Assembly: GCA_964497535.1 (NCBI GenBank)
Contig: CAZCCG010000001.1
Coordinates: 194,858 to 258,857, forward strand
DNA: 64,000 nt
From: an uncultured Gammaproteobacteria bacterium
GTDB lineage: Bacteria > Patescibacteriota > Microgenomatia > Levybacterales > UBA12049
Direction: 5' to 3'
Both the position numbers and the translations under genes were made by a program. The notes beneath the pieces are model-generated. The model searched no databases. It was not told the DNA's origin and was given only the letters and a program-made list of their open reading frames with translations. Position 1 is the first letter of the stretch. Each line of letters begins with the position of its first letter. Below, piece by piece: positions 3,144 through 33,161 of the stretch.

Positions 3144-3866
3144 TTATAATGGTAGTGAGTAGTGTATTATTGTTGTATTATTCTGCCGGATAATATTATC
3201 GACCGATATCGCTTTAGCTTCTCCAGTCGTATGCAATTGTGTTCCTCCATCGGCTACAGCCCCGACAGTTTCCAGTCTAAAAGTCCGAAGGGGTTTTTGG
3301 GTCGGAAGATTTGGTTGTAAATAGATTGCTTCTTTTTTTAAATCTTCATAGGATTGGAATTTCCAGGAAAATCTCAGATCTTTTGTAATCAGTTCATTCA
3401 CTTTTTTCTGTAACTGCTGTTTTATATCTTTTTCCAAAACACCTTGATAGACAATATATGGTTTTTTACCATGATCTGCCTTGAGCGGACTTACTATTTT
3501 TGGGGAATATCCCAAAAGATACAGTGCAAAATCCACAATATGTCCGGCACTATGATACCGCATATTTTTATAGCGGCGCTGCCAATCAATTGTCCCGTGT
3601 ACCGTCTCCCCGATTTTGGGTGTAGAGAGTGCTTTTACAAAGTGCCATAGCTGTCCGTTTTGTATCATAACCTGGTATACCTGTCCGCTCCATGAGTTTG
3701 AAATTAGGGTTCCTTGATCGGTTGGCTGTCCCCCGCCCATAGCATAAAAAATTGTCTGATCCAAAAGAATTTTATATTTCCCTTCCCCATCGTATAAAAC
3801 TTCCAAAATGGTAGCGTCCATTTCCTTCTGGTAGGAATCATCCAGATATATCAGTTTTGTTTTCAT
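3144..3866 (-). CDS. alaX: AlaX-like misacylated tRNA(Ala) editing protein (tRNA_SAD domain)
   Basis: 240 aa. Zinc-binding HxxxH (HSAGHIVDF) and GGTQLHTTGE motifs as in the AlaRS editing domain and AlaX. Confidence 0.65.
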   Translation of the reverse strand: MKTKLIYLDDSYQKEMDATILEVLYDGEGKYKILLDQTIFYAMGGGQPTDQGTLISNSWSGQVYQVMIQNGQLWHFVKALSTPKIGETVHGTIDWQRRYKNMRYHSAGHIVDFALYLLGYSPKIVSPLKADHGKKPYIVYQGVLEKDIKQQLQKKVNELITKDLRFSWKFQSYEDLKKEAIYLQPNLPTQKPLRTFRLETVGAVADGGTQLHTTGEAKAISVDNIIRQNNTTIIHYSLPL

Positions 3867-3964: not shown

Positions 3965-4699
3965 ATGAACTTCTTTCACCCGTCCAAACAGTCAACAAAT
4001 ACATTGTTTTGCTTTACACCGCTTGTTTCATTGGCAACTTTTATCATAGAAATATCATTTGCTCTCTATTTACTTTTCAAATATCGAACAACTCGATTTA
4101 GCCGAATCGGGATTGCGCTTTTGGTGTGTTTGGGGTTATTTCAATTCTCGGAATATCTCATCTGCATGGAACCGCAGTATACGGATCTCTGGATTAAAAT
4201 TGGATATATCGCTATCACACTTCTTCCGGCATTGGGGATTCATCTGATTTCGATTATCACACGAAGGCATACCACACTTATGTCTTCATCATACATCTAT
4301 GCGGGAGTGTTGGTCGTTGCCATTGTTCTGATCCCTCAAGTTGCGCTTGTTGCTACCTGTCAACCTGATTTTGTGGATATTACGATGAGTACGTGGTTTG
4401 GTCAATTCCACGGTGCGTATTATATAGCATATTTATTGGCAGCTGTTTATACACTCTGGTATTCTCTTCACAAACATATTGGAGATAGTTCGGAGGAAAA
4501 ATGGCTTCTTATTTCGTACGCGGCTTTTATCGTCCCAACGGTAGTATTATTTTATCTCAAAGTTATTTCTCATTTGGTTTTGCCATCGGTTATGTGCGGT
4601 TTTGCAGCCCTTGCCACAATTATTTTTATAATGATCGTAACACCTCGGTATTACCGGATCCACGCGAAGCGAACCAAGCAGAAAAAAAAGAGGAAATAG
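3965..4699 (+). CDS. standalone 7TM membrane protein, histidine-kinase 7TM sensor-like; poly-Lys C-terminus
   Basis: 244 aa with seven predicted TM helices. Resembles the HisKA_7TM N-terminal sensor domain but lacks a kinase core. Converges on the HK-RR operon. Confidence 0.45.
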   Translation: MNFFHPSKQSTNTLFCFTPLVSLATFIIEISFALYLLFKYRTTRFSRIGIALLVCLGLFQFSEYLICMEPQYTDLWIKIGYIAITLLPALGIHLISIITRRHTTLMSSSYIYAGVLVVAIVLIPQVALVATCQPDFVDITMSTWFGQFHGAYYIAYLLAAVYTLWYSLHKHIGDSSEEKWLLISYAAFIVPTVVLFYLKVISHLVLPSVMCGFAALATIIFIMIVTPRYYRIHAKRTKQKKKRK

Positions 4700-24851: not shown

Positions 24852-26208
24852 GTGGATGAGAAGTCAGATATTGCGCAGTATGTTCCCAAAACAGATGTAC
24901 ACCGGTTGATGTCAGCTCTATCACATGGCCGTCTTTTGCGTCTTCTTCAATGCGGCATTTGACCATTTCCCCAAAAATTCCAACCCGTTCACACCAGGTG
25001 ATAAATTGAGCAGATGGTTTGGAATGGAACGGCAGAACCAGTCCTCTCCAAGCAGAAGCCATAGCCAAAAGCTCCTGGCCCCGCTGGTTTTGCAGTGGAT
25101 CATCCATGCGTGCTTTTTCAAAGAGCTCTTGTTCTATATGATGGCCCGGTATGAGATGATGGCGTCTGAGAAATTCCAGATTATCCCGTTCCTGTTGTCC
25201 GACCGGATTTGAAAACAGAAGCAGCGTTCCTCCCCGTTGGGTAGGATTGCACAGACACTTAAATGCCTGCTCACTGGGTTTGGTAATTTCCAATGAGATC
25301 GTTGTCTGGTGAAAAAGCAGATCATAATTATTGACGGTTCCCCGATCATGAGATGATACATGGAGCTGGACAAATGGTTTATCCAGCATATACCCCAGGA
25401 AGTTTTTGGTATAGGGTGCGTCTTTTACTACGATATGGAATAAAAATCGCTCGGAGATTTGATGCAGGTTATCGATTAAATCTGCCACAAATGTTGTGCC
25501 GACTGCTGCTCCTGAAATGGGTACTGACACATGGATATGTGATTTTTTTTCAGGATCCAGCTGGTCTTTCCGATTGGTGAGTTGTTCATGAGTCAGATGT
25601 CGGGTCAGATCAGGACTGACAGGATAAGCTAACACTTCAAAGTTGACCGGTGGGATATGGTAGGTTTTGCCAAAGTGTACGAGCTTTTCACGAGTTGTAA
25701 AGCTGGGAACAAAAATAATATCGGCACCATCCACATACCAGATTGGATGAGGACTATCATCGGTTACCTGGACTACCAGAATAATCCTGACTTGTCTTTT
25801 TTTCTCAACGATGCCTTTAATTTCTGCAAGTTGATGGGCCAATCCAAAATGCGTGGCAACGATAAGGATTGTCTGGGGCAAATCGATCCGTTCATCCAGG
25901 ATAGTAGTAAGTTGTTGATACAACAATTTAGTATGGCTTCGAAGCATTAGCCGATACACATAAGCGGCAATATCCTGTAACCATCCTCGTTGTACCACCT
26001 CAAACATTGCACGAGTGATGGGGTGAATACTGATAAAACGGTGAATCCAGCTGATTGATTTGTCCTGGGTTCCCAAAAGAACCGGTGTTATTTCTTCAGG
26101 CAGTCCCCGATAGAGTGCGTCGGTAACACGCAAATGTCCCAAGCCTGCGGGGGCGAAAGCAAAAACTAAAACCAATGACTTTTTCTCAAGAATAGAGAAA
26201 GTATTCAT
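24844..26208 (-). CDS. GT-B fold glycosyltransferase (MGDG-synthase/MurG-like, family 28-like)
   Basis: 454 aa. The N-terminal FAPAGLGHLRVTDAL resembles the glycine-rich loop of MGDG synthase and MurG N-domains. Weak. Confidence 0.45.
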   Translation of the reverse strand: MNTFSILEKKSLVLVFAFAPAGLGHLRVTDALYRGLPEEITPVLLGTQDKSISWIHRFISIHPITRAMFEVVQRGWLQDIAAYVYRLMLRSHTKLLYQQLTTILDERIDLPQTILIVATHFGLAHQLAEIKGIVEKKRQVRIILVVQVTDDSPHPIWYVDGADIIFVPSFTTREKLVHFGKTYHIPPVNFEVLAYPVSPDLTRHLTHEQLTNRKDQLDPEKKSHIHVSVPISGAAVGTTFVADLIDNLHQISERFLFHIVVKDAPYTKNFLGYMLDKPFVQLHVSSHDRGTVNNYDLLFHQTTISLEITKPSEQAFKCLCNPTQRGGTLLLFSNPVGQQERDNLEFLRRHHLIPGHHIEQELFEKARMDDPLQNQRGQELLAMASAWRGLVLPFHSKPSAQFITWCERVGIFGEMVKCRIEEDAKDGHVIELTSTGVHLFWEHTAQYLTSHPLA

Positions 26209-26239
26209 AGATTAAGTGTAGTAAACAACAGAAGCAGAT

Positions 26240-26272
26240 ACAAGTTAGTGAAGTGTATAAAAAAAGCCCCGG
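26240..26272 (-). terminator. intrinsic terminator (GCCCCGGC-GCTA-GCCGGGGC plus U7) for gene 26275..26841
   Basis: Perfect 8 bp GC stem. On the minus strand it is followed by TTTTTTT. Confidence 0.8.
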
Positions 26273-26274
26273 CG

Positions 26275-26841
26275 CTAGCCGGGGCTGTAAGTATCACCAG
26301 AGGGAAGAGCCAAGAGCACCATTGGTGAATTGAGAACCCGAGGTTCATAAACCAGCACTTCGGTGCTCACATACTCCTTCTTTACCAGGACCCTGCTCTG
26401 CAGCATTTCCTGGTTGGTGAAGATCACGAGCGGTCCATTCCTAGGTGCCCACAGGCACCCGAAGAACCAGCGGGCATCAGTCTCGCTGGGGAAGAGTTCG
26501 TAGACGACCCGAGGCAACGCCTCGGCCCAGTCAAAACCGTAGTCGTTGTCCATATGCATGGGCACGACACGGTCCGAACCCAGGTCGGGGATTTCCTGAC
26601 AGATAAACCGCCACACGTGAGGTTCATCGGCGAGCCGGAAGGAGGCGAGTACCTCCCACAGTTTGTTGTGAAAGGCAATCATGCTCCCCGGCTGGTAATC
26701 CTGGGTGAACCGGGGCGGCTTGCCCGCCGGCATCAGTTCCACCTCCTCGAGGTGAGATTCCTCGTCCCAGGTGCGCATGCGGATGAGTTCTTCATCATCC
26801 AGGTAAAACCCGTGGATCGGATCGCCAACCTGAACACTCAT
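26275..26841 (-). CDS. hypothetical protein (higher-GC island gene 1)
   Basis: 188 aa. AAGGAG Shine-Dalgarno site 7 nt before the ATG. GC about 55%. Own promoter and terminator. Confidence 0.55.
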   Translation of the reverse strand: MSVQVGDPIHGFYLDDEELIRMRTWDEESHLEEVELMPAGKPPRFTQDYQPGSMIAFHNKLWEVLASFRLADEPHVWRFICQEIPDLGSDRVVPMHMDNDYGFDWAEALPRVVYELFPSETDARWFFGCLWAPRNGPLVIFTNQEMLQSRVLVKKEYVSTEVLVYEPRVLNSPMVLLALPSGDTYSPG

Positions 26842-26890
26842 GGTAACTCCTTCTGAAATGTGCGCTGAGGTACAGTTGTACCATCATAGA

Positions 26891-26930
26891 GGAATATAGC
26901 ATACCCGCCCCTGCGAGTCAATACTACAGG
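26891..26930 (-). promoter_or_regulatory. consensus sigma70 promoter P1 (TTGACT-N17-TATATT), one of three near-identical copies
   Basis: On the minus strand: CCTGTAGTATTGACTCGCAGGGGCGGGTATGCTATATTCC. Confidence 0.7.
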
Positions 26931-26984
26931 CTTCTGTCTCTGGAATAAGAAAGGGCGGCCCCGTATGGGGTCGCCCTGTTGGAT

Positions 26985-27470
26985 TTACTGCTGAGTAGTT
27001 CTCTCGGGTTCTGGGTCAGGGGGAGCCTTGCTCATGTCAATGCTAGCAATTGGCGTGAGGCTTCCCTCCTCGTCGCTTCCTCGAGGGAGGAAGGTTACCT
27101 CCCACCCGCACGTGCGGTAATGTTCAGCAACTCGCCGATAGACGAGTCGGGCATACTGAGGCGGTACAGTCCCTTCCCATACGAATAGTGCTTCGTTGAG
27201 TCGTACCACCGATATGCTCACGTCGAAGTCATCGGTGGTCAACAGCGAATCGATCGCTAACTCGCAGACAGCGTTCGCTGCTTGAATCACGCGATCTACT
27301 CGTATGCGACGCCGCTTGATCGACGGTGGCGGTCTGTCGCGGGAACCCATTTCACTCCTCCCCTTCCATAGTCTATGAGCGCCTCCGTGGATACCAGCTA
27401 GGGTACCCACAAAGCCACTCACAGCAAAAGGATTAGCTTTACCACGAACTATTAAAGAACTACTAATCAT
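26985..27470 (-). CDS. hypothetical protein (island gene 2); likely start at the internal MGSRDRPP preceded by GGAGGAG
   Basis: 161 aa ORF. The internal Met at about 27350 has a strong Shine-Dalgarno site. Terminator hairpin GGGCGGCCCC..GGGGTCGCCC at 26949-26982. Confidence 0.45.
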   Translation of the reverse strand: MISSSLIVRGKANPFAVSGFVGTLAGIHGGAHRLWKGRSEMGSRDRPPPSIKRRRIRVDRVIQAANAVCELAIDSLLTTDDFDVSISVVRLNEALFVWEGTVPPQYARLVYRRVAEHYRTCGWEVTFLPRGSDEEGSLTPIASIDMSKAPPDPEPERTTQQ

Positions 27471-27516
27471 AAATAAGATAGAGTTTTTGTATCTACAGAA
27501 GGATAGATTTAGTTAG

Positions 27517-27557
27517 AGGAATATAGCAGAAAGAATAGTACATGTCAACACTACAGG
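27517..27557 (-). promoter_or_regulatory. consensus sigma70 promoter P2 (TTGACA-N17-TATATT)
   Basis: On the minus strand: CCTGTAGTGTTGACATGTACTATTCTTTCTGCTATATTCCTC. Confidence 0.7.
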
Positions 27558-27636
27558 ATGTTATGTTGAAGGAGGTGCCATTGACTGAAAAGGACTAAAG
27601 AAAACCCCCTTCAGCAGAAGCCGAAGAGGGTAACGA

Positions 27637-27882
27637 TTAACTACAGTATGGGCAAGGGATTTTCCCCGCATCTGCCATAGAGTCGAGGTACCCTTTCCCG
27701 TGGCAATGTGCGCAACGAGTCACGGTTTTATGGCCGAATCGTTGCGAGTGCTCGTTCTGCTGGCCGGTTCCTCCGCACCACGTGCAGGTGAACCTGCCTG
27801 AGTCGGTCATAGAATCCATCTTGCCGGTGCCGTAGCAGCCGGCACAGATCTCTTCCCGTGGGCCACCCTGATAGCTACTCAT
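27637..27882 (-). CDS. small cysteine-rich protein with four CxxCxGxG repeats (DnaJ CR-type zinc-finger-like)
   Basis: 81 aa. CAGCYGTGK, CTWCGGTGQ, CAHCHGKGY, CPYC. AAGGAG Shine-Dalgarno site. Terminator at 27590-27636. Confidence 0.6.
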   Translation of the reverse strand: MSSYQGGPREEICAGCYGTGKMDSMTDSGRFTCTWCGGTGQQNEHSQRFGHKTVTRCAHCHGKGYLDSMADAGKIPCPYCS

Positions 27883-27911
27883 GTATGTCTCCTTTCAGAC
27901 ACCACTATTGA

Positions 27912-28304
27912 CTACTTGATCCATAGGGCATACTGCCCTACCGGAACCAATTTACCCTTTCGGGTAAAAGGCAGATCCGCTACACGGTATCCCTCCCTCA
28001 TCAGCCTAGCATGCAACCGAGTCGGCTGATCAGGGTGAGGAAATACCCCATGCATCTCCCATCCCTGAGCGAGAGCCTCCTGCGCCGTGTGAGGAAATGC
28101 CTGGACGAGTTCGTGAACCTCATCCTCCGTCAACCATTCCGAGAGAGGGCTTAGCTCCCTCAGGTCGTGGAAGAGCTTCTGACGACCTGCCTCTTCCCGC
28201 GGAAGAAGCCGATCATCTTCGTACCAGTGGGTATCCGGCATATAAGTCTCCTCTCGATGAATATGGCGTTGAAGAAATATAGCATACATACGTCCGGGAG
28301 TCAA
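27912..28304 (-). CDS. hypothetical protein (island gene 4); likely start at the internal MPDTHWYED
   Basis: The track ORF opens with TTG inside promoter P3. The internal ATG has an AGGAG Shine-Dalgarno site 7 nt upstream. No recognisable domain. Confidence 0.5.
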   Translation of the reverse strand: MTPGRMYAIFLQRHIHREETYMPDTHWYEDDRLLPREEAGRQKLFHDLRELSPLSEWLTEDEVHELVQAFPHTAQEALAQGWEMHGVFPHPDQPTRLHARLMREGYRVADLPFTRKGKLVPVGQYALWIK

Positions 28305-29670: not shown

Positions 29671-30051
29671 CTATCCTTCTACTTCAACTTGAAAACCGCC
29701 GTAAGCCATTCTCTTCATGTCAAAAGGCATAGTAAAGTCTTTATACTTTTCTTCTAGCTTTTTCATCTGTTCCATGACCTTAGCATTAACCTCGTCTCGA
29801 TGTTCTTTGGATTTAAAGACGATAAAAGAAAACCAAACTGTTTCATCTTTTTTTGCCTTTGCCATTTCCGTAAATGCTAACGGTTTTTCACCGCCCATTT
29901 CCTGGGGAACAAGATCATCACCGCGGCATTCATAGTATTCTAACGCTCCATATTTCATCCACATATCACGGCCTTCTTCTGCCATTTTTTTGTATGTCTC
30001 AGCTTTGTCTTTTAGAACTACAATTACAAATCCATCCACGTATTTTGCCAT
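29671..30051 (-). CDS. DUF1428 (YbaA-like) protein
   Basis: 126 aa. MAKYVDGFVIVVLKDKAETYKKMAE...AYGGFQVEV is typical of the family. Confidence 0.65.
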   Translation of the reverse strand: MAKYVDGFVIVVLKDKAETYKKMAEEGRDMWMKYGALEYYECRGDDLVPQEMGGEKPLAFTEMAKAKKDETVWFSFIVFKSKEHRDEVNAKVMEQMKKLEEKYKDFTMPFDMKRMAYGGFQVEVEG

Positions 30052-30141
30052 AATTTATTCACCCCTTTCCTGATACTAAGTTGGGTTAGTAGTATCCCAT
30101 ACACCAAAATTAATTGCAACCTCAACGAAAACATTTTTTTA

Positions 30142-30666
30142 CTATTTTCCGTTTTTCCATGACCTTGCCATAAAGCGTTCTTCTTTTCCTGTTAGTACGT
30201 CAATGACTTTTTTAAGATTTTTTTCTTTTGCATCATTTGTTTTAAGCCAGGAAAAGTAGCGTAAAATCTCCTTTTTTCTACTGGGAATTAATTTTTCCCA
30301 GTTGCTTTGTGCAACAGGGTTTTTATCAAGAGCATCTTGAAGAAAAGGGATCATCTTATATTCCAGCGGTTTTGAATTATGTTCAATGTCAAAAGTAACT
30401 TCTTTGCCGATTATTTCACTAATACTTTTTGAAAACTTTATCTTTGCGGCTTTGGCCATGATTATATTGATATAAAGCCTCCAATTTCCTTGATATCTTA
30501 CGAGTGATTGGTAAAATATAGCCCCATTTAACTTACCCTTTATCGATATTGGACTCGTTTGTTTTCCTGCTTGTTGAAAGATGGCATGCAAAATATCATC
30601 TGGTGGACGGACGTAAGGATTGCCGTTGATAATAGAAACTGTTGCAGAAAACTTGCGAGTGGACAT
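30142..30666 (-). CDS. DUF1905 / YdeI-OmpD-associated family protein
   Basis: 174 aa. An N-terminal DUF1905-like beta domain (SATVSIINGNPYVRPPDDIL...) and a C-terminal YdeI-like segment. Leaderless: TATAAT lies 7 nt before the ATG. Confidence 0.55.
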   Translation of the reverse strand: MSTRKFSATVSIINGNPYVRPPDDILHAIFQQAGKQTSPISIKGKLNGAIFYQSLVRYQGNWRLYINIIMAKAAKIKFSKSISEIIGKEVTFDIEHNSKPLEYKMIPFLQDALDKNPVAQSNWEKLIPSRKKEILRYFSWLKTNDAKEKNLKKVIDVLTGKEERFMARSWKNGK

Positions 30667-30671
30667 GTAAA

Positions 30672-30700
30672 AATTATAGCAGAAGCAAAGAGTGCTCCCC
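30672..30700 (-). repeat. 29-bp direct repeat (promoter -10 region) copy 1, followed by a decayed copy of the tRNA-Asn 3' end
   Basis: AATTATAGCAGAAGCAAAGAGTGCTCCCC is identical to 31106-31134. The flank GGCGTTAGAACCT resembles the tRNA T-arm GGATTCGAACCT. Confidence 0.7.
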
Positions 30701-30719
30701 TAATGGGCGGCGTTAGAAC

Positions 30720-31097
30720 CTATTTCCTTTTGAAGAAGACTAATTTGTATCCGTCAGGATCCTTAATTACGAATTCCCTACTGCCCCAAGGATAATCTTG
30801 CGGTTCACCTAACGGCTTAAGTCCTTTTTCAAGGAGGTTTTTATAATAGTCATCAACATTTCCCACGCTGATATGTATATACTGACCTGCACCTTTGCTG
30901 GTTGCTTTAACATCTTCCTTAAACTCGTCTGTTACGATTTTATCTTCAAGCAATAGTTCAATCCAAAACCAATTCAAATATGCAGTAGCTGAAACACCTG
31001 GGATACGCTTTTTGAATTCAAAACCAAGCATTTCATAAAACGCAGTCGACCTTTGGAGATCGCGAACCAAACAAATAACACCCGCAACACTTTTCAT
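30720..31097 (-). CDS. VOC family protein (glyoxalase/bleomycin-resistance fold)
   Basis: 125 aa. Leaderless: TATAAT lies 8 nt before the ATG, inside direct-repeat copy 2. Confidence 0.7.
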   Translation of the reverse strand: MKSVAGVICLVRDLQRSTAFYEMLGFEFKKRIPGVSATAYLNWFWIELLLEDKIVTDEFKEDVKATSKGAGQYIHISVGNVDDYYKNLLEKGLKPLGEPQDYPWGSREFVIKDPDGYKLVFFKRK

Positions 31098-31105
31098 ATA
31101 AGGTA

Positions 31106-31134
31106 AATTATAGCAGAAGCAAAGAGTGCTCCCC
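31106..31134 (-). repeat. 29-bp direct repeat copy 2 (overlaps the last 6 nt of tRNA-Asn)
   Basis: Identical to 30672-30700. Contains a TATAAT used as the -10 box for the VOC gene. Confidence 0.7.
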
Positions 31135-31200
31135 CGCGAGGATTCGAACCTCGAACCTTTTCGTTAACAGCGAACCGCTCTACCGTTGAGCTACAGGGGA
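31129..31200 (-). tRNA. tRNA-Asn (anticodon GTT)
   Basis: On the minus strand: TCCCCTG TA GCTC AACGGTA GAGC G GTTCG CTGTTAA CGAAA AGGTT CGAGG TTCGAAT CCTCG CGGGGGA G. Cloverleaf with a 7 bp acceptor stem, T-loop TTCGAAT, and anticodon loop CT-GTT-AA. Confidence 0.85.
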
Positions 31201-31439
31201 ATATATTTTTTAATAAACTGTCTTCCTTGATAACTTTTTAACTGTTTTTCTCTTCTAAGTGCGCTTATTCTATCCTTTGTTTCCTCGTTATATATTAGTT
31301 GCCATTCTCCGTCAAGTTTTGCGGTAAAACTATTCTTAAACGCTCTTTCTGTATGTAATCTCAGCCTTTCTTCTAAATTCTCTGTTTGGCCGACGTATAT
31401 TCTATTATGCTTCTTATTGTATAAGGCGTAAACTATCAT
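31191..31439 (-). CDS. GIY-YIG nuclease-superfamily small protein (YhbQ/UPF0213-like)
   Basis: 82 aa. IVYALYNKKHNRIYVGQTENLEERLRLH is a GIY-(x10)-YIG signature. Its 3' end overlaps the tRNA 5' end by about 10 nt. Confidence 0.65.
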   Translation of the reverse strand: MIVYALYNKKHNRIYVGQTENLEERLRLHTERAFKNSFTAKLDGEWQLIYNEETKDRISALRREKQLKSYQGRQFIKKYIPL

Positions 31440-31450
31440 ATCCTGCGAAT

Positions 31451-31487
31451 TGCTCTACCTCCGCCAGCTGGCGGAGAGCTACAGGGG
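31451..31487 (-). other. tRNA-Asn 5'-fragment pseudo-copy with the D-loop replaced by the 18-nt palindrome CTCCGCCAGCTGGCGGAG
   Basis: On the minus strand: TCCCCTGTAGCTC-[TCCGCCAGCTGGCGGAG]-GTAGAGC, against the tRNA's TCCCCTGTAGCTC-AACG-GTAGAGC. Lies directly upstream of the GIY-YIG ORF. Confidence 0.6.
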
Positions 31488-31598
31488 ACTATGTTTAATC
31501 TTTGATATTTTATCATTAACTAAAGGCTAAATCTACCTTTGCATTTTCAAGGAGAAATAACTTCTTGATATTTCTCCAAATATTGGTACAATAATCCT

Positions 31599-31994
31599 AT
31601 GAAAAAGAATCCGGTTGTGCATTTTGAAATGCCGGCCAAAGACAGAAAAAGAGTTGCCAAATTCTATACCCAAGCCTTTGGATGGAACATGCAGCAAATG
31701 GGAGCAGATATGGGTAACTATGTTCTTGCCGGAACGACAGAAACTGACGCCAACAATATGGTCAAAACTCCCGGAACAATTAATGGCGGTTTTTTTGATT
31801 ATAAAAATGATGATCTCAATCGTGTTCCTCATTTAGTAATTTCAGTAGACAATATTGAAGAGAGTATAGAAAAAGTAAAAAAAGAAGGCGGTAAGATCGC
31901 CGGAGATATTATGGAAATCCCGGGAATTGGCAGATATATATCTTTTTACGACACCGAAGATAATGTCGTAGGCATGCTCCAACCAAAAATGTAA
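31599..31994 (+). CDS. VOC family protein (glyoxalase-like)
   Basis: 131 aa. Leaderless: TTGATA-N17-TACAAT lies 6 nt before the ATG. A 9 bp hairpin GGAGAAATA..TATTTCTCC overlaps the -35 box. Confidence 0.7.
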   Translation: MKKNPVVHFEMPAKDRKRVAKFYTQAFGWNMQQMGADMGNYVLAGTTETDANNMVKTPGTINGGFFDYKNDDLNRVPHLVISVDNIEESIEKVKKEGGKIAGDIMEIPGIGRYISFYDTEDNVVGMLQPKM

Positions 31995-32017
31995 GGTATT
32001 TCAGCCTCTCACCTTTT

Positions 32018-32395
32018 ATGAATACTATTGGTTATTTTGAAATCCAGGCGGATGATCCCCAAAAAGCAGTAACGTTTTATAGTGAAATCTTTGGATGGAA
32101 ATTCGTACGGGATGACATGATACCGGTGGAATACTATCGAATTGAAGGAGCCGGTCCATATGGTGGCCTCCTCAAACGTCCTGCGCCAGTTCCTTCCTCC
32201 CAGAGCGGTACCAATGCATATGTTTGCTCCATACAAGTTGAAAATTTTGACAAGACTTCGGAGAAAATTTTAAAACAGGGTGGACAAGTAGCCCTTCCCA
32301 AATTTGCAGTATCCGGAAAATGTTGGCAAGGATATTTCCTGGATCCCCAGGGAAATACATTTGGAGTCTTTCAAGTCGACGAAAACGCTTCTTAA
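32018..32395 (+). CDS. VOC family protein (glyoxalase-like)
   Basis: 125 aa (MNTIGYFEIQADDPQKAVTFYSEIFGWKF...). Paralog of the upstream gene. Confidence 0.7.
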   Translation: MNTIGYFEIQADDPQKAVTFYSEIFGWKFVRDDMIPVEYYRIEGAGPYGGLLKRPAPVPSSQSGTNAYVCSIQVENFDKTSEKILKQGGQVALPKFAVSGKCWQGYFLDPQGNTFGVFQVDENAS

Positions 32396-32459
32396 AAATT
32401 CTTGGCTTACTACCAAATTGATCCTGGCTGTCGAGTAAAAATAGTGTATAATAAGGGCT

Positions 32460-32579
32460 ATGGCAAAAAGAAATACAGGGGTGGGGAAAAGAAAAAGAAC
32501 CCATTCACCCAAAACCAAAAAAAGGCTTGAGATTAAATTTGCAATGCTCGCCAAAAAAGCGAGCAAACGACGCAGATAA
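32460..32579 (+). CDS. unannotated 39-aa highly basic small protein (MAKRNTGVGKRKRTHSPKPKKRLEIKFAMLAKKASKRRR)
   Basis: Not in the ORF track because it is under 60 aa. TATAAT lies 6 nt upstream (leaderless). KRKRTH recalls ribosomal protein bL34, but the rest does not match. Confidence 0.35.
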   Translation: MAKRNTGVGKRKRTHSPKTKKRLEIKFAMLAKKASKRRR

Positions 32580-32588
32580 AAAGAAAGA

Positions 32589-33161
32589 TTATTTTCCTTC
32601 GTAGGCTTTTTTCAGTGCGGCAATATCAAATTTCTTCATTTGCATGAAAGCAGTAGTTATACGATTTACTTTTTCATGATCCGGGTCACTTAAGTATTTA
32701 TTCAAAACCGTTGGAACTATTTGCCACGTGACGCCGAATTTATCGGTGCACCACCCACATTGCTCAGCTTCCGGCTTTGCCGAGAGCGCTTTCCACAATT
32801 GATCTATCTCTTCTTGGGTTTCACAGCTGACAACAAATGAGATTGCAGGAGAAAAGGTAAATTCCTTAACCGGTCCGCCGTTTAAGGCAACAAATTTCAA
32901 ACCCCGAATTTCAAATTCGACCGTCATAACACTGCCGGCTGGTTTTCCAGCCACTTCAACTGCGGCTTCAGGGTATTTTTGAATAGAAAGAATTTTTGAA
33001 TTCAGTCCGCCAGAGGCGAGATCTTGCTCTTTCAAGGCGGAGAAAGTCTCAACATAGTAGGTTGCTGCTTCTTCGGCTTGGCTATCAAACCACAAAAATG
33101 GAGTTATTTTTTGCATAGATTTCTTTATAGCTATCTTAATTGATATAAAAACTCTTGTCAA
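32589..33161 (-). CDS. VOC family protein, PhnB-like (start probably MQKITPFLWFD)
   Basis: ITPFLWFDSQAEEAATYYVETF is typical of PhnB/3-demethylubiquinone-9 3-methyltransferase-like VOC proteins. Confidence 0.65.
   Translation of the reverse strand: MTRVFISIKIAIKKSMQKITPFLWFDSQAEEAATYYVETFSALKEQDLASGGLNSKILSIQKYPEAAVEVAGKPAGSVMTVEFEIRGLKFVALNGGPVKEFTFSPAISFVVSCETQEEIDQLWKALSAKPEAEQCGWCTDKFGVTWQIVPTVLNKYLSDPDHEKVNRITTAFMQMKKFDIAALKKAYEGK

What the first reader, a model, noticed from the sequence alone, without database searches (positions are those of the whole stretch)
30672..31487. tRNA-Asn locus with signatures of repeated insertion: duplicated 3' flank with a decayed tRNA 3' copy, and a 5' tRNA fragment split by an 18-nt palindrome flanking a GIY-YIG ORF
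The minus-strand tRNA-Asn(GTT) is intact. On its 3' side a 29-bp sequence overlapping the last tRNA bases and carrying a TATAAT box is repeated 434 bp downstream. That second copy is followed by a degenerate copy of the T-arm (GGCGTTAGAACCT against GGATTCGAACCT). This is the att-like direct-repeat pattern left by integration into a tRNA 3' end, and it encloses one VOC gene.

On the 5' side, upstream of a GIY-YIG ORF that overlaps the tRNA by 10 nt, there is a second copy of the tRNA 5' 13 nt plus GTAGAGC. In it the D-loop is replaced by the perfect palindrome CTCCGCCAGCTGGCGGAG.
Basis: seen in the sequence. Interest (0 to 1): 0.6.

Follow-up and report, generated by a model that had tools for sequence, protein, structure and literature searches.

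The report
Nuclease cassette inside CPR tRNA-Asn gene
The odd tRNA fragment, palindrome and small nuclease gene next to this tRNA-Asn are one copy of an apparently undescribed cassette that sits in the tRNA-Asn gene of hundreds of Patescibacteria (CPR) genomes, most likely a selfish element that repairs the gene it interrupts by duplicating its 5' part.

Summary
The 5' side is not a one-off scar. All 80 genome loci that encode a relative of the 82-aa GIY-YIG protein have the same layout: native tRNA promoter, then tRNA-Asn nt 1-13, then an almost invariant palindrome (TCCGCC-N4-GGCGGA) in place of the D-loop, then a decaying remainder of the 5' half, then the GIY-YIG ORF, then an intact or group-I-intron-split tRNA-Asn(GTT). 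The ORF stop codon is often tRNA nt 8-10.

The displaced fragment carries the local acceptor sequence in 58 of 66 loci, across 22 acceptor types. Tandem units, ORF-less units, frameshifted ORFs and an empty site also exist. The protein model is closest to Slx1/UPF0213, the structure-specific GIY-YIG branch, and has no DNA-binding domain.

The best reading is a homing-type selfish cassette that restores the tRNA by duplicating its 5' part. The role of the palindrome is unresolved.

The 3' side is a separate matter. The exact 30-bp repeat around the VOC gene is unique to this genome. One relative (L028) has the same pseudo-3' end around a different gene. Serine-recombinase islands insert at the tRNA-Asn 3' end in other CPR populations. 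The att-like reading is therefore plausible but unproven.

The parts
31507..31515 (-). Extended -10 box TGATAAAAT of the native tRNA-Asn promoter. It ends 18 nt before nt 1 of the displaced fragment.
   Evidence: Read directly. Many related loci have TGnTAnAAT ending 19 nt before the fragment. The empty site L082 has TGATATAAT 20 nt before an intact tRNA-Asn. Its function as a promoter is inferred.
31476..31488 (-). A': displaced copy of tRNA-Asn nt 1-13 (TCCCCTGTAGCTC).
   Evidence: Exact copy of the tRNA 5' end. In 58 of 66 related loci the local acceptor strand (nt 1-7) sits here, against 0.24% for non-local acceptors.
31460..31475 (.). Invariant palindrome TCCGCCAGCTGGCGGA, which replaces D-loop nt 14-16. 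It is 18 nt long if the flanking C and G are counted (31459-31476).
   Evidence: Unique in the window. Present 5' of the ORF in about 79 of 80 genome loci. 185 of 201 copies have perfect arms. As DNA the 18-mer hairpin folds at -7.2 kcal/mol, z -3.4.
31440..31459 (-). B': GGTAGAGCAATTCGCAGGAT, the decaying continuation of the tRNA 5' half (nt 18 to about 31), ending in an AGGA Shine-Dalgarno-like motif.
   Evidence: (repeat D9). B' still holds the local anticodon-stem strand in 21 of 107 units, against 0.94 expected.
31191..31439 (-). 82-aa minimal GIY-YIG nuclease ORF. Its last three codons and TAG stop are tRNA nt 1-10.
   Evidence: PF01541, E 4e-14. Catalytic Y4, Y15, R25, H29 and E64 are conserved. 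AF2 pLDDT is 94. The best fold matches are UPF0213 BH0048 and Slx1.
31128..31200 (-). Intact tRNA-Asn(GTT).
   Evidence: ARAGORN; Rfam RF00005, 66.4 bits.
31105..31134 (-). 30-bp repeat, copy 1: the last 7 nt of the tRNA, a weak stem-loop, then TGCTATAAT, 9 nt before the VOC ATG.
30720..31097 (-). VOC/glyoxalase-family ORF enclosed by the 30-bp repeats.
   Evidence: Pfam PF00903, E 2.6e-15.
30701..30722 (-). Pseudo T-arm (AGGTTCTAACGCCGCCCATTA) that precedes copy 2 of the repeat. Together with GGGGAGCA it forms a pseudo 3' end of the tRNA.
   Evidence: Marginal alone. L028 has the same architecture, GGTTCTAA, 12 nt, GGGGAGCA, after a different gene.
30671..30700 (-). 30-bp repeat, copy 2. Its TATAAT lies 6 nt before the ATG of the YdeI/OmdA-like ORF (30142-30666).
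   Evidence: Reproduced in independent assembly L213.

Best explanation
The 5' side is one copy of a Patescibacteria-wide cassette that occupies the tRNA-Asn(GTT) gene. A small gene for a minimal, Slx1/UPF0213-type GIY-YIG nuclease lies inside what used to be the tRNA gene.

The gene's original 5' part stays next to its native promoter. It consists of nt 1-13, then a conserved 16-nt palindrome in place of the D-loop, then a decaying nt 18 to about 35. A second copy of the 5' part is fused to the end of the nuclease ORF and rebuilds a complete, functional tRNA. The ORF reads into the tRNA and stops at U8-A9-G10.

I think it is a selfish, homing-endonuclease-like element. The nuclease breaks tRNA-Asn DNA, or the palindrome or cruciform. 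Recombinational repair between the short direct tRNA repeats then copies, amplifies or deletes the unit.

Shown here: the anatomy, its phylum-wide conservation, the local origin of the displaced fragment, and the existence of tandem, ORF-less, frameshifted and empty states. Inferred: nuclease activity, its target, homing, and any role of the palindrome.

The 3' repeat is a separate, lineage-specific single-gene insertion slot at the tRNA 3' end.
For: All 80 genome loci found through the protein have tRNA-Asn(GTT) directly 3' of the ORF. ARAGORN. Nine are split by an intervening sequence after nt 35, which Rfam scores as a group I intron in five. Three are cut off by contig ends.

The local tRNA 5' end recurs 280-310 nt upstream and co-varies over 22 acceptor types. 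The remainder of the fragment is local where it is still legible (21 of 107 against 0.94 expected). It never extends past the anticodon loop.

The fragment sits at the native promoter distance.

A search that did not depend on the ORF, using D-arm plus palindrome, gave 74 sites. Of these, 64 are followed by the ORF, 2-3 of them disrupted (L148 and L192 clearly, L209 possibly). Three are ORF-less units before tRNA-Asn.

Tandem and degenerate units occur in L066, L010, L007, L008, L034 and others. L082 is an empty site.

The catalytic residues are invariant. The fold is GIY-YIG, closest to Slx1/UPF0213.

There is a precedent. The phage GIY-YIG endonuclease SegB cuts inside tRNA genes and drives recombination-dependent tandem amplification (PMC13096335; PMC2330249).
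Against: The protein has no DNA-binding domain, so sequence-specific homing of the I-TevI/Seg kind is not expected.

The intact tRNA remains in the cassette-bearing allele, so immunity to self-cleavage is unexplained.

No cassette presence/absence polymorphism was seen within one population. L223-L228 all carry it.

Protein identity is about 59% regardless of host group. This is saturation and gives no evidence for or against horizontal transfer.

A' stays identical to the local tRNA while B' decays. This hints at selection on A', possibly at the RNA level, rather than a passive relic.

The palindrome also occurs at ORF-less units next to tRNA-Gly and tRNA-Thr and in some intergenic sites.
Confidence: 0.55

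Rival explanations
1. Domesticated operon. The pseudo-5' half with its hairpin is a functional leader RNA, and the small GIY-YIG protein acts on the tRNA-Asn transcript. For example, A' could compete with the tRNA's own 5' strand for the 3' acceptor strand. That would decide between RNase P maturation, which would cut off the ORF's stop codon, and translation of the nuclease. Alternatively the protein binds the hairpin RNA.
For: A' (nt 1-13) stays identical to the local tRNA in 58 of 66 loci while B' decays in 84 of 117. Gene conversion over 13 nt is implausible, so selection is a natural explanation. The ORF stop lies inside the tRNA in 41 of 69 loci. The MFE fold of the whole transcript pairs A' with the tRNA 3' end. 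Dunin-Horkawicz et al. noted a prokaryotic Slx1-like domain fused to a tRNA Gm18 methyltransferase (PMC1564403).
Against: The fold energies are not better than shuffles (z -1.5 and +0.1). Where A' differs from the tRNA at nt 1-7 (six loci, by my reading), two changes would still pair with the expected 3' acceptor strand and four would not. The distribution is patchy, and degenerate, tandem and empty states exist. No GIY-YIG RNase precedent was found.
Confidence: 0.15
2. The palindrome is itself a miniature mobile repeat (REP-like) and the GIY-YIG protein is its nuclease, analogous to REP/RAYT. The tRNA fragments are simply the places where insertion is tolerated, namely dead copies.
For: The palindrome sits at at least five different junctions in the D-arm. 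It also occurs in T-loops of 3' fragments, in a loop of the intervening sequence (group-I-intron-like, below Rfam's threshold) in L020, nested inside itself, at ORF-less units next to tRNA-Gly and tRNA-Thr, and free-standing (four copies in the 5.6 kb of L199). Its arms are 92% perfect with no compensatory changes, which points to sequence-specific recognition. The nuclease belongs to the structure-specific Slx1 branch.
Against: 168 of 184 strict copies lie in the tRNA-Asn module, though the sampling was biased towards it. There is only one copy in this 64-kb window. No mechanism is known for moving a 16-nt unit.
Confidence: 0.15
3. Fossil of a group I intron with its homing endonuclease. An intron at 35/36 of tRNA-Asn that carried a GIY-YIG gene lost its ribozyme after recombination with an intron-less copy. 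This left the 5' exon, the ORF and a whole tRNA, and the structure no longer moves.
For: tRNA-Asn 35/36 is the known intron site in this phylum (PMC13011429). Several fragments end exactly at ...CTGT (and the text printed).
Against: Intact ORFs with invariant catalytic residues occur in hundreds of lineages. The cassette coexists with intron-bearing tRNA-Asn genes. Some fragments run past 35/36 (L029, L047). Introns reported in this gene carry HNH genes, not GIY-YIG. There is no ribozyme in the window.
Confidence: 0.1
4. For the 3' repeat only: a simple local duplication of a terminator-promoter block, with no integration event.
For: Both copies place TATAAT 6-9 nt before an ATG and contain the same weak stem-loop. 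Only 7 nt are tRNA. The flank repeat is found in 1 of 60 loci. There is no integrase.
Against: The identity ends abruptly. The second copy is preceded by a pseudo T-arm whose architecture is shared with L028, where it follows a different gene. The tRNA-Asn 3' end is a proven insertion point elsewhere.
Confidence: 0.3

Closest known systems
Free-standing GIY-YIG homing endonuclease SegB of T4/T6 phages (PMC2330249; PMC13096335)
   Same: A GIY-YIG nuclease gene lies next to tRNA genes. It cleaves inside tRNA genes and causes recombination-dependent tandem amplification of the nuclease-plus-tRNA segment. This matches the tandem and partial units seen here.
   Different: SegB is phage-borne and, from my own knowledge, larger with a DNA-binding part. 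It has no displaced tRNA half and no palindrome. The protein here is an 82-aa Slx1-like domain on bacterial chromosomes. It has no phage homologue.
Group I introns, some with HNH homing genes, at position 35/36 of Patescibacteria tRNA-Asn (PMC13011429)
   Same: Same gene, same phylum, and a breakpoint in the same anticodon loop. Both interrupt an essential tRNA gene without killing it.
   Different: Here there is no ribozyme. The gene is restored at the DNA level by duplication of the 5' half, not by RNA splicing. The nuclease is GIY-YIG rather than HNH. The two elements coexist in at least 5, probably 9, of the 80 loci.
Integrative elements that target tRNA genes and carry a replacement copy of the displaced end (classical att sites; my own knowledge)
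   Same: The insertion leaves a displaced tRNA fragment, and a duplicated segment rebuilds an intact tRNA.
   Different: Classical elements replace the 3' end and encode an integrase. This cassette replaces the 5' end, is about 290 bp long, and encodes only a nuclease.
Prokaryotic stand-alone Slx1-like / UPF0213 GIY-YIG proteins (BH0048 1ZG2, EF2693 1YWL; PMC1564403)
   Same: Minimal single-domain GIY-YIG proteins. They are the best structural matches, and 765 clusters in the 50%-identity representative library match at E<=1e-10.
   Different: Their function is unknown. The tRNA-Asn linkage, the ORF-tRNA overlap and the palindrome are specific to this CPR branch as far as tested.
REP elements and their RAYT transposases (my own knowledge)
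   Same: A short dispersed palindrome is associated with a nuclease gene flanked by copies of it.
   Different: RAYTs are HUH/Y1 enzymes and REPs are intergenic and numerous. Here the enzyme is GIY-YIG and the palindrome is concentrated in tRNA fragments.
GIY-YIG ORFs in non-intron insertions of CPR rRNA genes (PMC11270868)
   Same: CPR bacteria; a GIY-YIG gene inserted in a structural RNA gene without a ribozyme; the insertions lie at stem-loop tips.
   Different: Those are in rRNA and sparse. Whether they belong to the same subfamily or carry the palindrome was not tested.

Membership tests
GIY-YIG nuclease superfamily (Pfam PF01541) | Domain match above the curated threshold | tested here: met
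   53.1 bits against a cutoff of 22.6, E 4.1e-14.
GIY-YIG nuclease superfamily (Pfam PF01541) | Catalytic Tyr-Tyr-Arg-(His)-Glu residues conserved | tested here: met
   Y4, Y15, R25 and E64 are invariant and H29 is at least 90% conserved in 23 sequences.
Slx1 / UPF0213 stand-alone branch | Minimal domain with no auxiliary domain and no C-terminal Asn extension; fold closest to Slx1/UPF0213 | tested here: met
   82 aa. The top Foldseek hits are 1ZG2, 6SEH, 7CQ3 and 7WME (probability 0.98-1.0, TM 0.55-0.66), ahead of I-TevI at 0.48. The E-values are weak (0.01-0.1).
GIY-YIG homing endonucleases (I-TevI / Seg type) | C-terminal DNA-binding domain joined by a linker | tested here: not met
   The protein ends at residue 82. 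NCBIfam TIGR01453 matches only residues 3-36, at 26 bits against a cutoff of 56.
GIY-YIG homing endonucleases (I-TevI / Seg type) | Gene present or absent at an otherwise conserved site | tested here: inconclusive
   Empty tRNA-Asn in L082; ORF-less and frameshifted units. No polymorphism was seen inside one population.
GIY-YIG homing endonucleases (I-TevI / Seg type) | Cleaves the allele that lacks the gene | not testable with these tools
   Needs biochemistry.
Group I intron in tRNA-Asn | Ribozyme core between the exons | tested here: not met
   No RF00028 match in the window. It is present downstream of the cassette in L031, L046, L051, L056 and L059.
Integrase-mediated tRNA att site (3' side) | Recombinase gene next to the repeat | tested here: not met
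   No recombinase domain in ORFs between 22 and 37 kb.
Integrase-mediated tRNA att site (3' side) | Direct repeat of the tRNA 3' part bounding foreign DNA, with an empty site in relatives | tested here: inconclusive
   The 30-bp exact repeat holds only 7 nt of tRNA. The pseudo T-arm is marginal but shared with L028. No close syntenic relative was found.
REP/RAYT-like palindrome systems | HUH/Y1 transposase | tested here: not met
   The only associated gene is GIY-YIG.

The most novel reading that the evidence does not exclude
The invariant palindrome is the specific recognition or cleavage structure for a minimal Slx1-type GIY-YIG nuclease. It could act as a two-fold DNA site or cruciform, or as an RNA handle next to a tRNA-derived guide-like segment. 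Together the two parts would form a new kind of mobile element. It would invade tRNA genes at loop-coding positions and keep the host alive by duplicating the interrupted part of the gene instead of splicing.
Probability: 0.25. Interest if true: 0.85.

Novelty: new variant of a known kind. Interest (0 to 1): 0.72.

Why it matters
Selfish elements in essential RNA genes are known to avoid killing the host in two ways. Introns splice themselves out of the RNA. Integrases carry a replacement 3' end. This cassette would be a third way: a nuclease gene of about 290 bp whose insertion is made harmless by duplication of the tRNA 5' part.

It would also give a first biological context to the large family of stand-alone Slx1-like bacterial GIY-YIG proteins of unknown function. 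It points to a 16-nt palindrome that is conserved more strictly than the protein across a whole phylum.

Practically, it explains assembly breaks and odd tRNA annotations at tRNA-Asn in CPR genomes. It also adds to the recent finding that this gene is an intron hotspot.

Tried and rejected
1. Empty site in a close relative. The exact-protein look-up for the GIY-YIG gave only a sibling-sample contig, and the VOC protein was not on record. Homologues of the YdeI neighbour are at most 74% identical and lie in other contexts. Only a distant empty site, L082, was found.

2. Palindrome in viral contigs. The 55 hits have flanks that lack any tRNA fragment. More than half lie in contigs of at least 55% G+C, and chance appears to explain them.

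3. Phage origin. There is no tblastn hit in 50,697 phage records, and PHROGs gives only weak N-terminal hits.

4. Horizontal transfer tested by comparing protein and tRNA divergence. Mantel r is 0.05, but identity is flat at about 0.59 within and between host groups. This is saturation and is uninformative.

5. A structured leader RNA. Fold energies are not significant. There is no Rfam family apart from tRNA.

6. RNA-type covariation in the palindrome. There are 8 wobble-compatible and 8 disruptive single changes and no compensatory pairs.

7. Similarity upstream of A' to the ORF end. It is limited to the dinucleotide AT, except in loci that have remnants of older units.

8. Literature. No paper holds the palindrome string, links GIY-YIG with tRNA-Asn in bacteria, or links UPF0213/YhbQ with tRNA.

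9. Other copies in the window. There are none of the ORF, the palindrome or tRNA fragments.
Full report
**1. The observation**

The window holds one tRNA, tRNA-Asn(GTT), at 31128-31200 on the minus strand (Rfam 66.4 bits).

On the 3' side, an exact 30-bp direct repeat lies at 31105-31134 and 30671-30700. It contains the last 7 nt of the tRNA and 23 nt of flank with TGCTATAAT, and it brackets a 125-aa VOC ORF. Shuffles expect no such repeat.

Immediately upstream of the tRNA, an 82-aa GIY-YIG ORF (31191-31439, PF01541 E 4e-14) runs 10 nt into the tRNA. Its stop codon TAG is tRNA nt 8-10.

Upstream of that ORF lie three parts in order:
- TCCCCTGTAGCTC, which equals tRNA nt 1-13;
- the palindrome TCCGCCAGCTGGCGGA;
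- GGTAGAGCAATTCGCAGGAT, where the tRNA has GGTAGAGCGGTTCGCTG.

Independent assemblies from sibling samples reproduce both regions at 100% identity (L001 and L213). The only soft element is the 'decayed T-arm' beside the second repeat copy. Taken alone it is no better than 4-6% of random comparisons.

**2. What the 5' structure is**

The organism is a member of the Patescibacteria (CPR), because every named homologue of the nuclease comes from that group. Some TPA records are titled Gammaproteobacteria, which I take to be placeholder labels.

A scan of one genome per species returned 80 loci that encode relatives 51-69% identical. All 80 have tRNA-Asn(GTT) directly downstream on the same strand:
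- ARAGORN of them.
- Nine have the 5' exon ending ...CTGT followed by an intervening sequence. Rfam RF00028 confirms a group I intron in five.
- Three are cut off by contig ends.

In these loci the local tRNA 5' end recurs 280-310 nt upstream, just before the ORF. The exact local acceptor strand is present in 58 of 66 loci, over 22 different acceptor sequences. For non-local acceptors the figure is 0.24%.

Between nt 13 and nt 17/18 of that copy sits the same palindrome, TCCGCC-N4-GGCGGA, in about 79 of 80 loci.

After the palindrome the copy continues as the local tRNA for a variable distance. The local anticodon-stem strand is still legible in 21 of 107 non-redundant units, against 0.94 expected. 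The copy never runs beyond the anticodon loop and otherwise decays.

Many loci have an extended -10 box ending 19 nt before the fragment (18 nt in the window). A cassette-free tRNA-Asn in L082 has the same box 20 nt before the intact tRNA. The fragment is therefore the original 5' part of the gene in its native promoter context. The ORF plus a second copy of the 5' part lies inside the former gene.

A search that did not depend on the ORF used the D-arm plus palindrome as the pattern in metagenomes. It found 74 sites:
- 64 are followed by the ORF, 2-3 of them disrupted (L148 and L192 clearly, L209 possibly);
- three are ORF-less units in front of tRNA-Asn;
- three are ORF-less units in front of tRNA-Gly(GCC) or tRNA-Thr, with the fragment matching the local tRNA-Gly;
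- four are at contig ends.

A profile search shows the family is large. The 50%-identity representative library has 765 clusters at E<=1e-10.

**3. States of the cassette**

Besides the standard unit there are several other forms:
- tandem units, as in L066 (fragment; fragment+ORF; fragment+ORF; tRNA) and L010;
- units whose ORF is reduced to its last ~20-120 nt, in L007, L008, L034, L049, L062, L065 and L077;
- solo units, in L166, L180 and L179;
- an empty site, L082.

The ORF stop is the tRNA's TAG in 41 of 69 loci. Thirty-seven of 117 units have TAnAAT placed 5-7 nt before the start codon, a geometry typical of leaderless transcripts. The window copy has an AGGA motif instead.

This range of intact, amplified, decayed and absent forms is what the gain-degeneration-loss cycle of homing endonuclease genes predicts. 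Unequal recombination between the 13-nt direct repeats would produce both the tandem arrays and precise loss.

**4. The protein**

The AlphaFold model is confident (pLDDT 94). Its best matches in the PDB are the UPF0213 protein BH0048, the nuclease domain of Slx1, and plant HIGLE. The I-TevI catalytic domain scores lower.

There is no sequence hit in the PDB, no phage homologue, and only a sub-threshold N-terminal match to the group I intron endonuclease model.

It is thus a single-domain GIY-YIG protein of the structure-specific Slx1 branch, without a DNA-binding domain. Dunin-Horkawicz et al. describe such stand-alone prokaryotic Slx1-like domains as the minimal form of the fold, with unknown function (PMC1564403).

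**5. The palindrome**

It is the most conserved part of the whole structure. Of 201 copies, 185 have perfect 6-nt arms and 76% have the fully palindromic centre AGCT. Single arm changes split 8 wobble-compatible to 8 disruptive, and there are no compensatory pairs. The adjacent protein, by contrast, is about 59% identical between loci. This pattern indicates sequence-specific recognition rather than mere stability.

Its position is not fixed. At least five junction types occur in the D-arm region. It also appears in these places:
- the T-loop of partial 3' tRNA copies (L009, L057, L076);
- a full-length second tRNA-Asn copy (L043);
- a peripheral loop of the intervening sequence (group-I-intron-like, below Rfam's threshold) in L020;
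- nested inside itself (L009, L013, L016, L027, L043, L049, L057, L069);
- free-standing in some intergenic regions, with four copies in the 5.6 kb of L199.

In every case it sits at the tip of a helix. I could not decide among four roles: a two-fold DNA site or cruciform for the nuclease, an RNA handle, a heterology that stabilises the cassette against deletion or prevents pre-tRNA misfolding, or an independent miniature element. This is the main open point.

**6. Mechanism**

The best-supported explanation is a selfish, homing-type cassette (confidence 0.55). The closest experimental precedent is phage SegB. It is a GIY-YIG endonuclease encoded among tRNA genes that cuts within tRNA genes and drives recombination-dependent tandem amplification of the nuclease-tRNA segment (PMC13096335).

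The differences are substantial. The enzyme here is minimal and Slx1-like. The element lies inside the tRNA gene and neutralises its own insertion by duplicating the 5' part. A conserved palindrome accompanies it.

Several points weaken the homing model:
- There is no evident way for the intact downstream tRNA to escape cleavage.
- No within-population presence/absence polymorphism was seen. L223-L228 all carry the cassette.
- A' is selectively preserved while B' decays, which suggests an RNA-level or recombinational role for nt 1-13.

The rivals are a domesticated leader-plus-protein operon, a REP/RAYT-like palindrome system, and a fossil intron endonuclease. They are listed with their tests in the rival explanations.

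The relation to the group I introns recently reported at 35/36 of Patescibacteria tRNA-Asn (PMC13011429) is close in place but not in kind. The cassette has no ribozyme and coexists with those introns. That paper does not mention it.

**7. The 3' side**

The 23-nt flank repeat is unique to this genome among 60 loci. Each copy puts TATAAT 6-9 nt before an ATG and contains a weak stem-loop, so it may be kept as a terminator-promoter block.

Relative L028 carries, after a different single gene (DUF1761), a pseudo 3' end with the same unusual architecture as the window copy: GGTTCTAA, 12 nt, GGGGAGCA. Both loci continue to a DUF1428 gene that is 83% identical at the DNA level.

In a Roizmanbacteria population, genomes that are 99.8% identical up to the last base of tRNA-Asn either carry or lack an island that begins with a large serine recombinase gene (L223/L224 against L225-L228). 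The P0247 loci show the same adjacency.

The tRNA-Asn 3' end is thus a real insertion point in this phylum, and the VOC gene probably sits in such a slot. The window has no recombinase and no empty-site relative was found, so this remains an inference.

**8. Verdict**

What the finding leads to is more interesting than a scarred locus: a widespread and, as far as the searchable literature shows, undescribed tRNA-Asn cassette. It combines a minimal GIY-YIG nuclease, a displaced tRNA 5' part and an invariant palindrome.

Noticed in passing
window 29671-30051 (-); L028 3937-4317; L055 2509-2889; L057 2149-2586: The DUF1428 gene downstream of tRNA-Asn is 83-87% identical at the nucleotide level between these otherwise unalignable loci. 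The genes between the tRNA and DUF1428 differ (VOC+YdeI; DUF1761; others). Either it is a strongly conserved anchor gene or it is a recently exchanged one next to a variable slot.
   Followed up: partly
L223/L224 versus L225-L228, about 4376-4382; L215 4375-6099: There is a strain-level polymorphism. A block that starts with a large serine recombinase gene begins exactly at the 3' end of tRNA-Asn in some genomes of a population and is absent in others. The upstream sequence is 99.8% identical and includes the GIY-YIG cassette.
   Followed up: partly
L196 123-170; L150 421-470; L199 256-300: ORF-less units made of a tRNA 5' fragment plus the palindrome lie in front of tRNA-Gly(GCC) and tRNA-Thr genes. 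The tRNA-Gly fragment has the local acceptor sequence.
   Followed up: partly
L020 3334-3349: The same 16-nt palindrome forms the tip of a peripheral stem of the group-I-intron-like intervening sequence that splits tRNA-Asn in this locus. Rfam RF00028 did not reach its threshold here, but the sequence resembles the confirmed introns.
   Followed up: no
L043, about 3370-3450: A second, full-length tRNA-Asn-like copy with a nested palindrome in its D-loop lies just after the normal tRNA-Asn.
   Followed up: no
L199 (5.6 kb): 264, 459, 712, 4405: There are four copies of the palindrome in one short contig, three of them outside any tRNA fragment. This suggests a dispersed repeat in some CPR genomes.
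   Followed up: no
window 26001-28000: G+C is 52% here against about 38% in the rest of the window. The ORFs in this stretch (26275-26841, 26985-27470, 27912-28304) have no Pfam match.
   Followed up: no
window 29671-33161: Small stress/detoxification-type genes cluster on both sides of the tRNA: three VOC paralogues, YdeI/OmdA, DUF1428 and a PhnB-like 3-dmu-9_3-mt protein. L082 has a similar set downstream of its empty tRNA-Asn.
   Followed up: no
L159 about 2800 versus L169 5431-5806: A 375-nt insertion/deletion separates two contigs that are otherwise more than 99% identical. It lies about 280 nt upstream of the cassette.
   Followed up: no
L045 versus L046, 2262-3275: Two genomes are 93% identical across the cassette and differ in that one has a group I intron in tRNA-Asn and the other does not.
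   Followed up: partly
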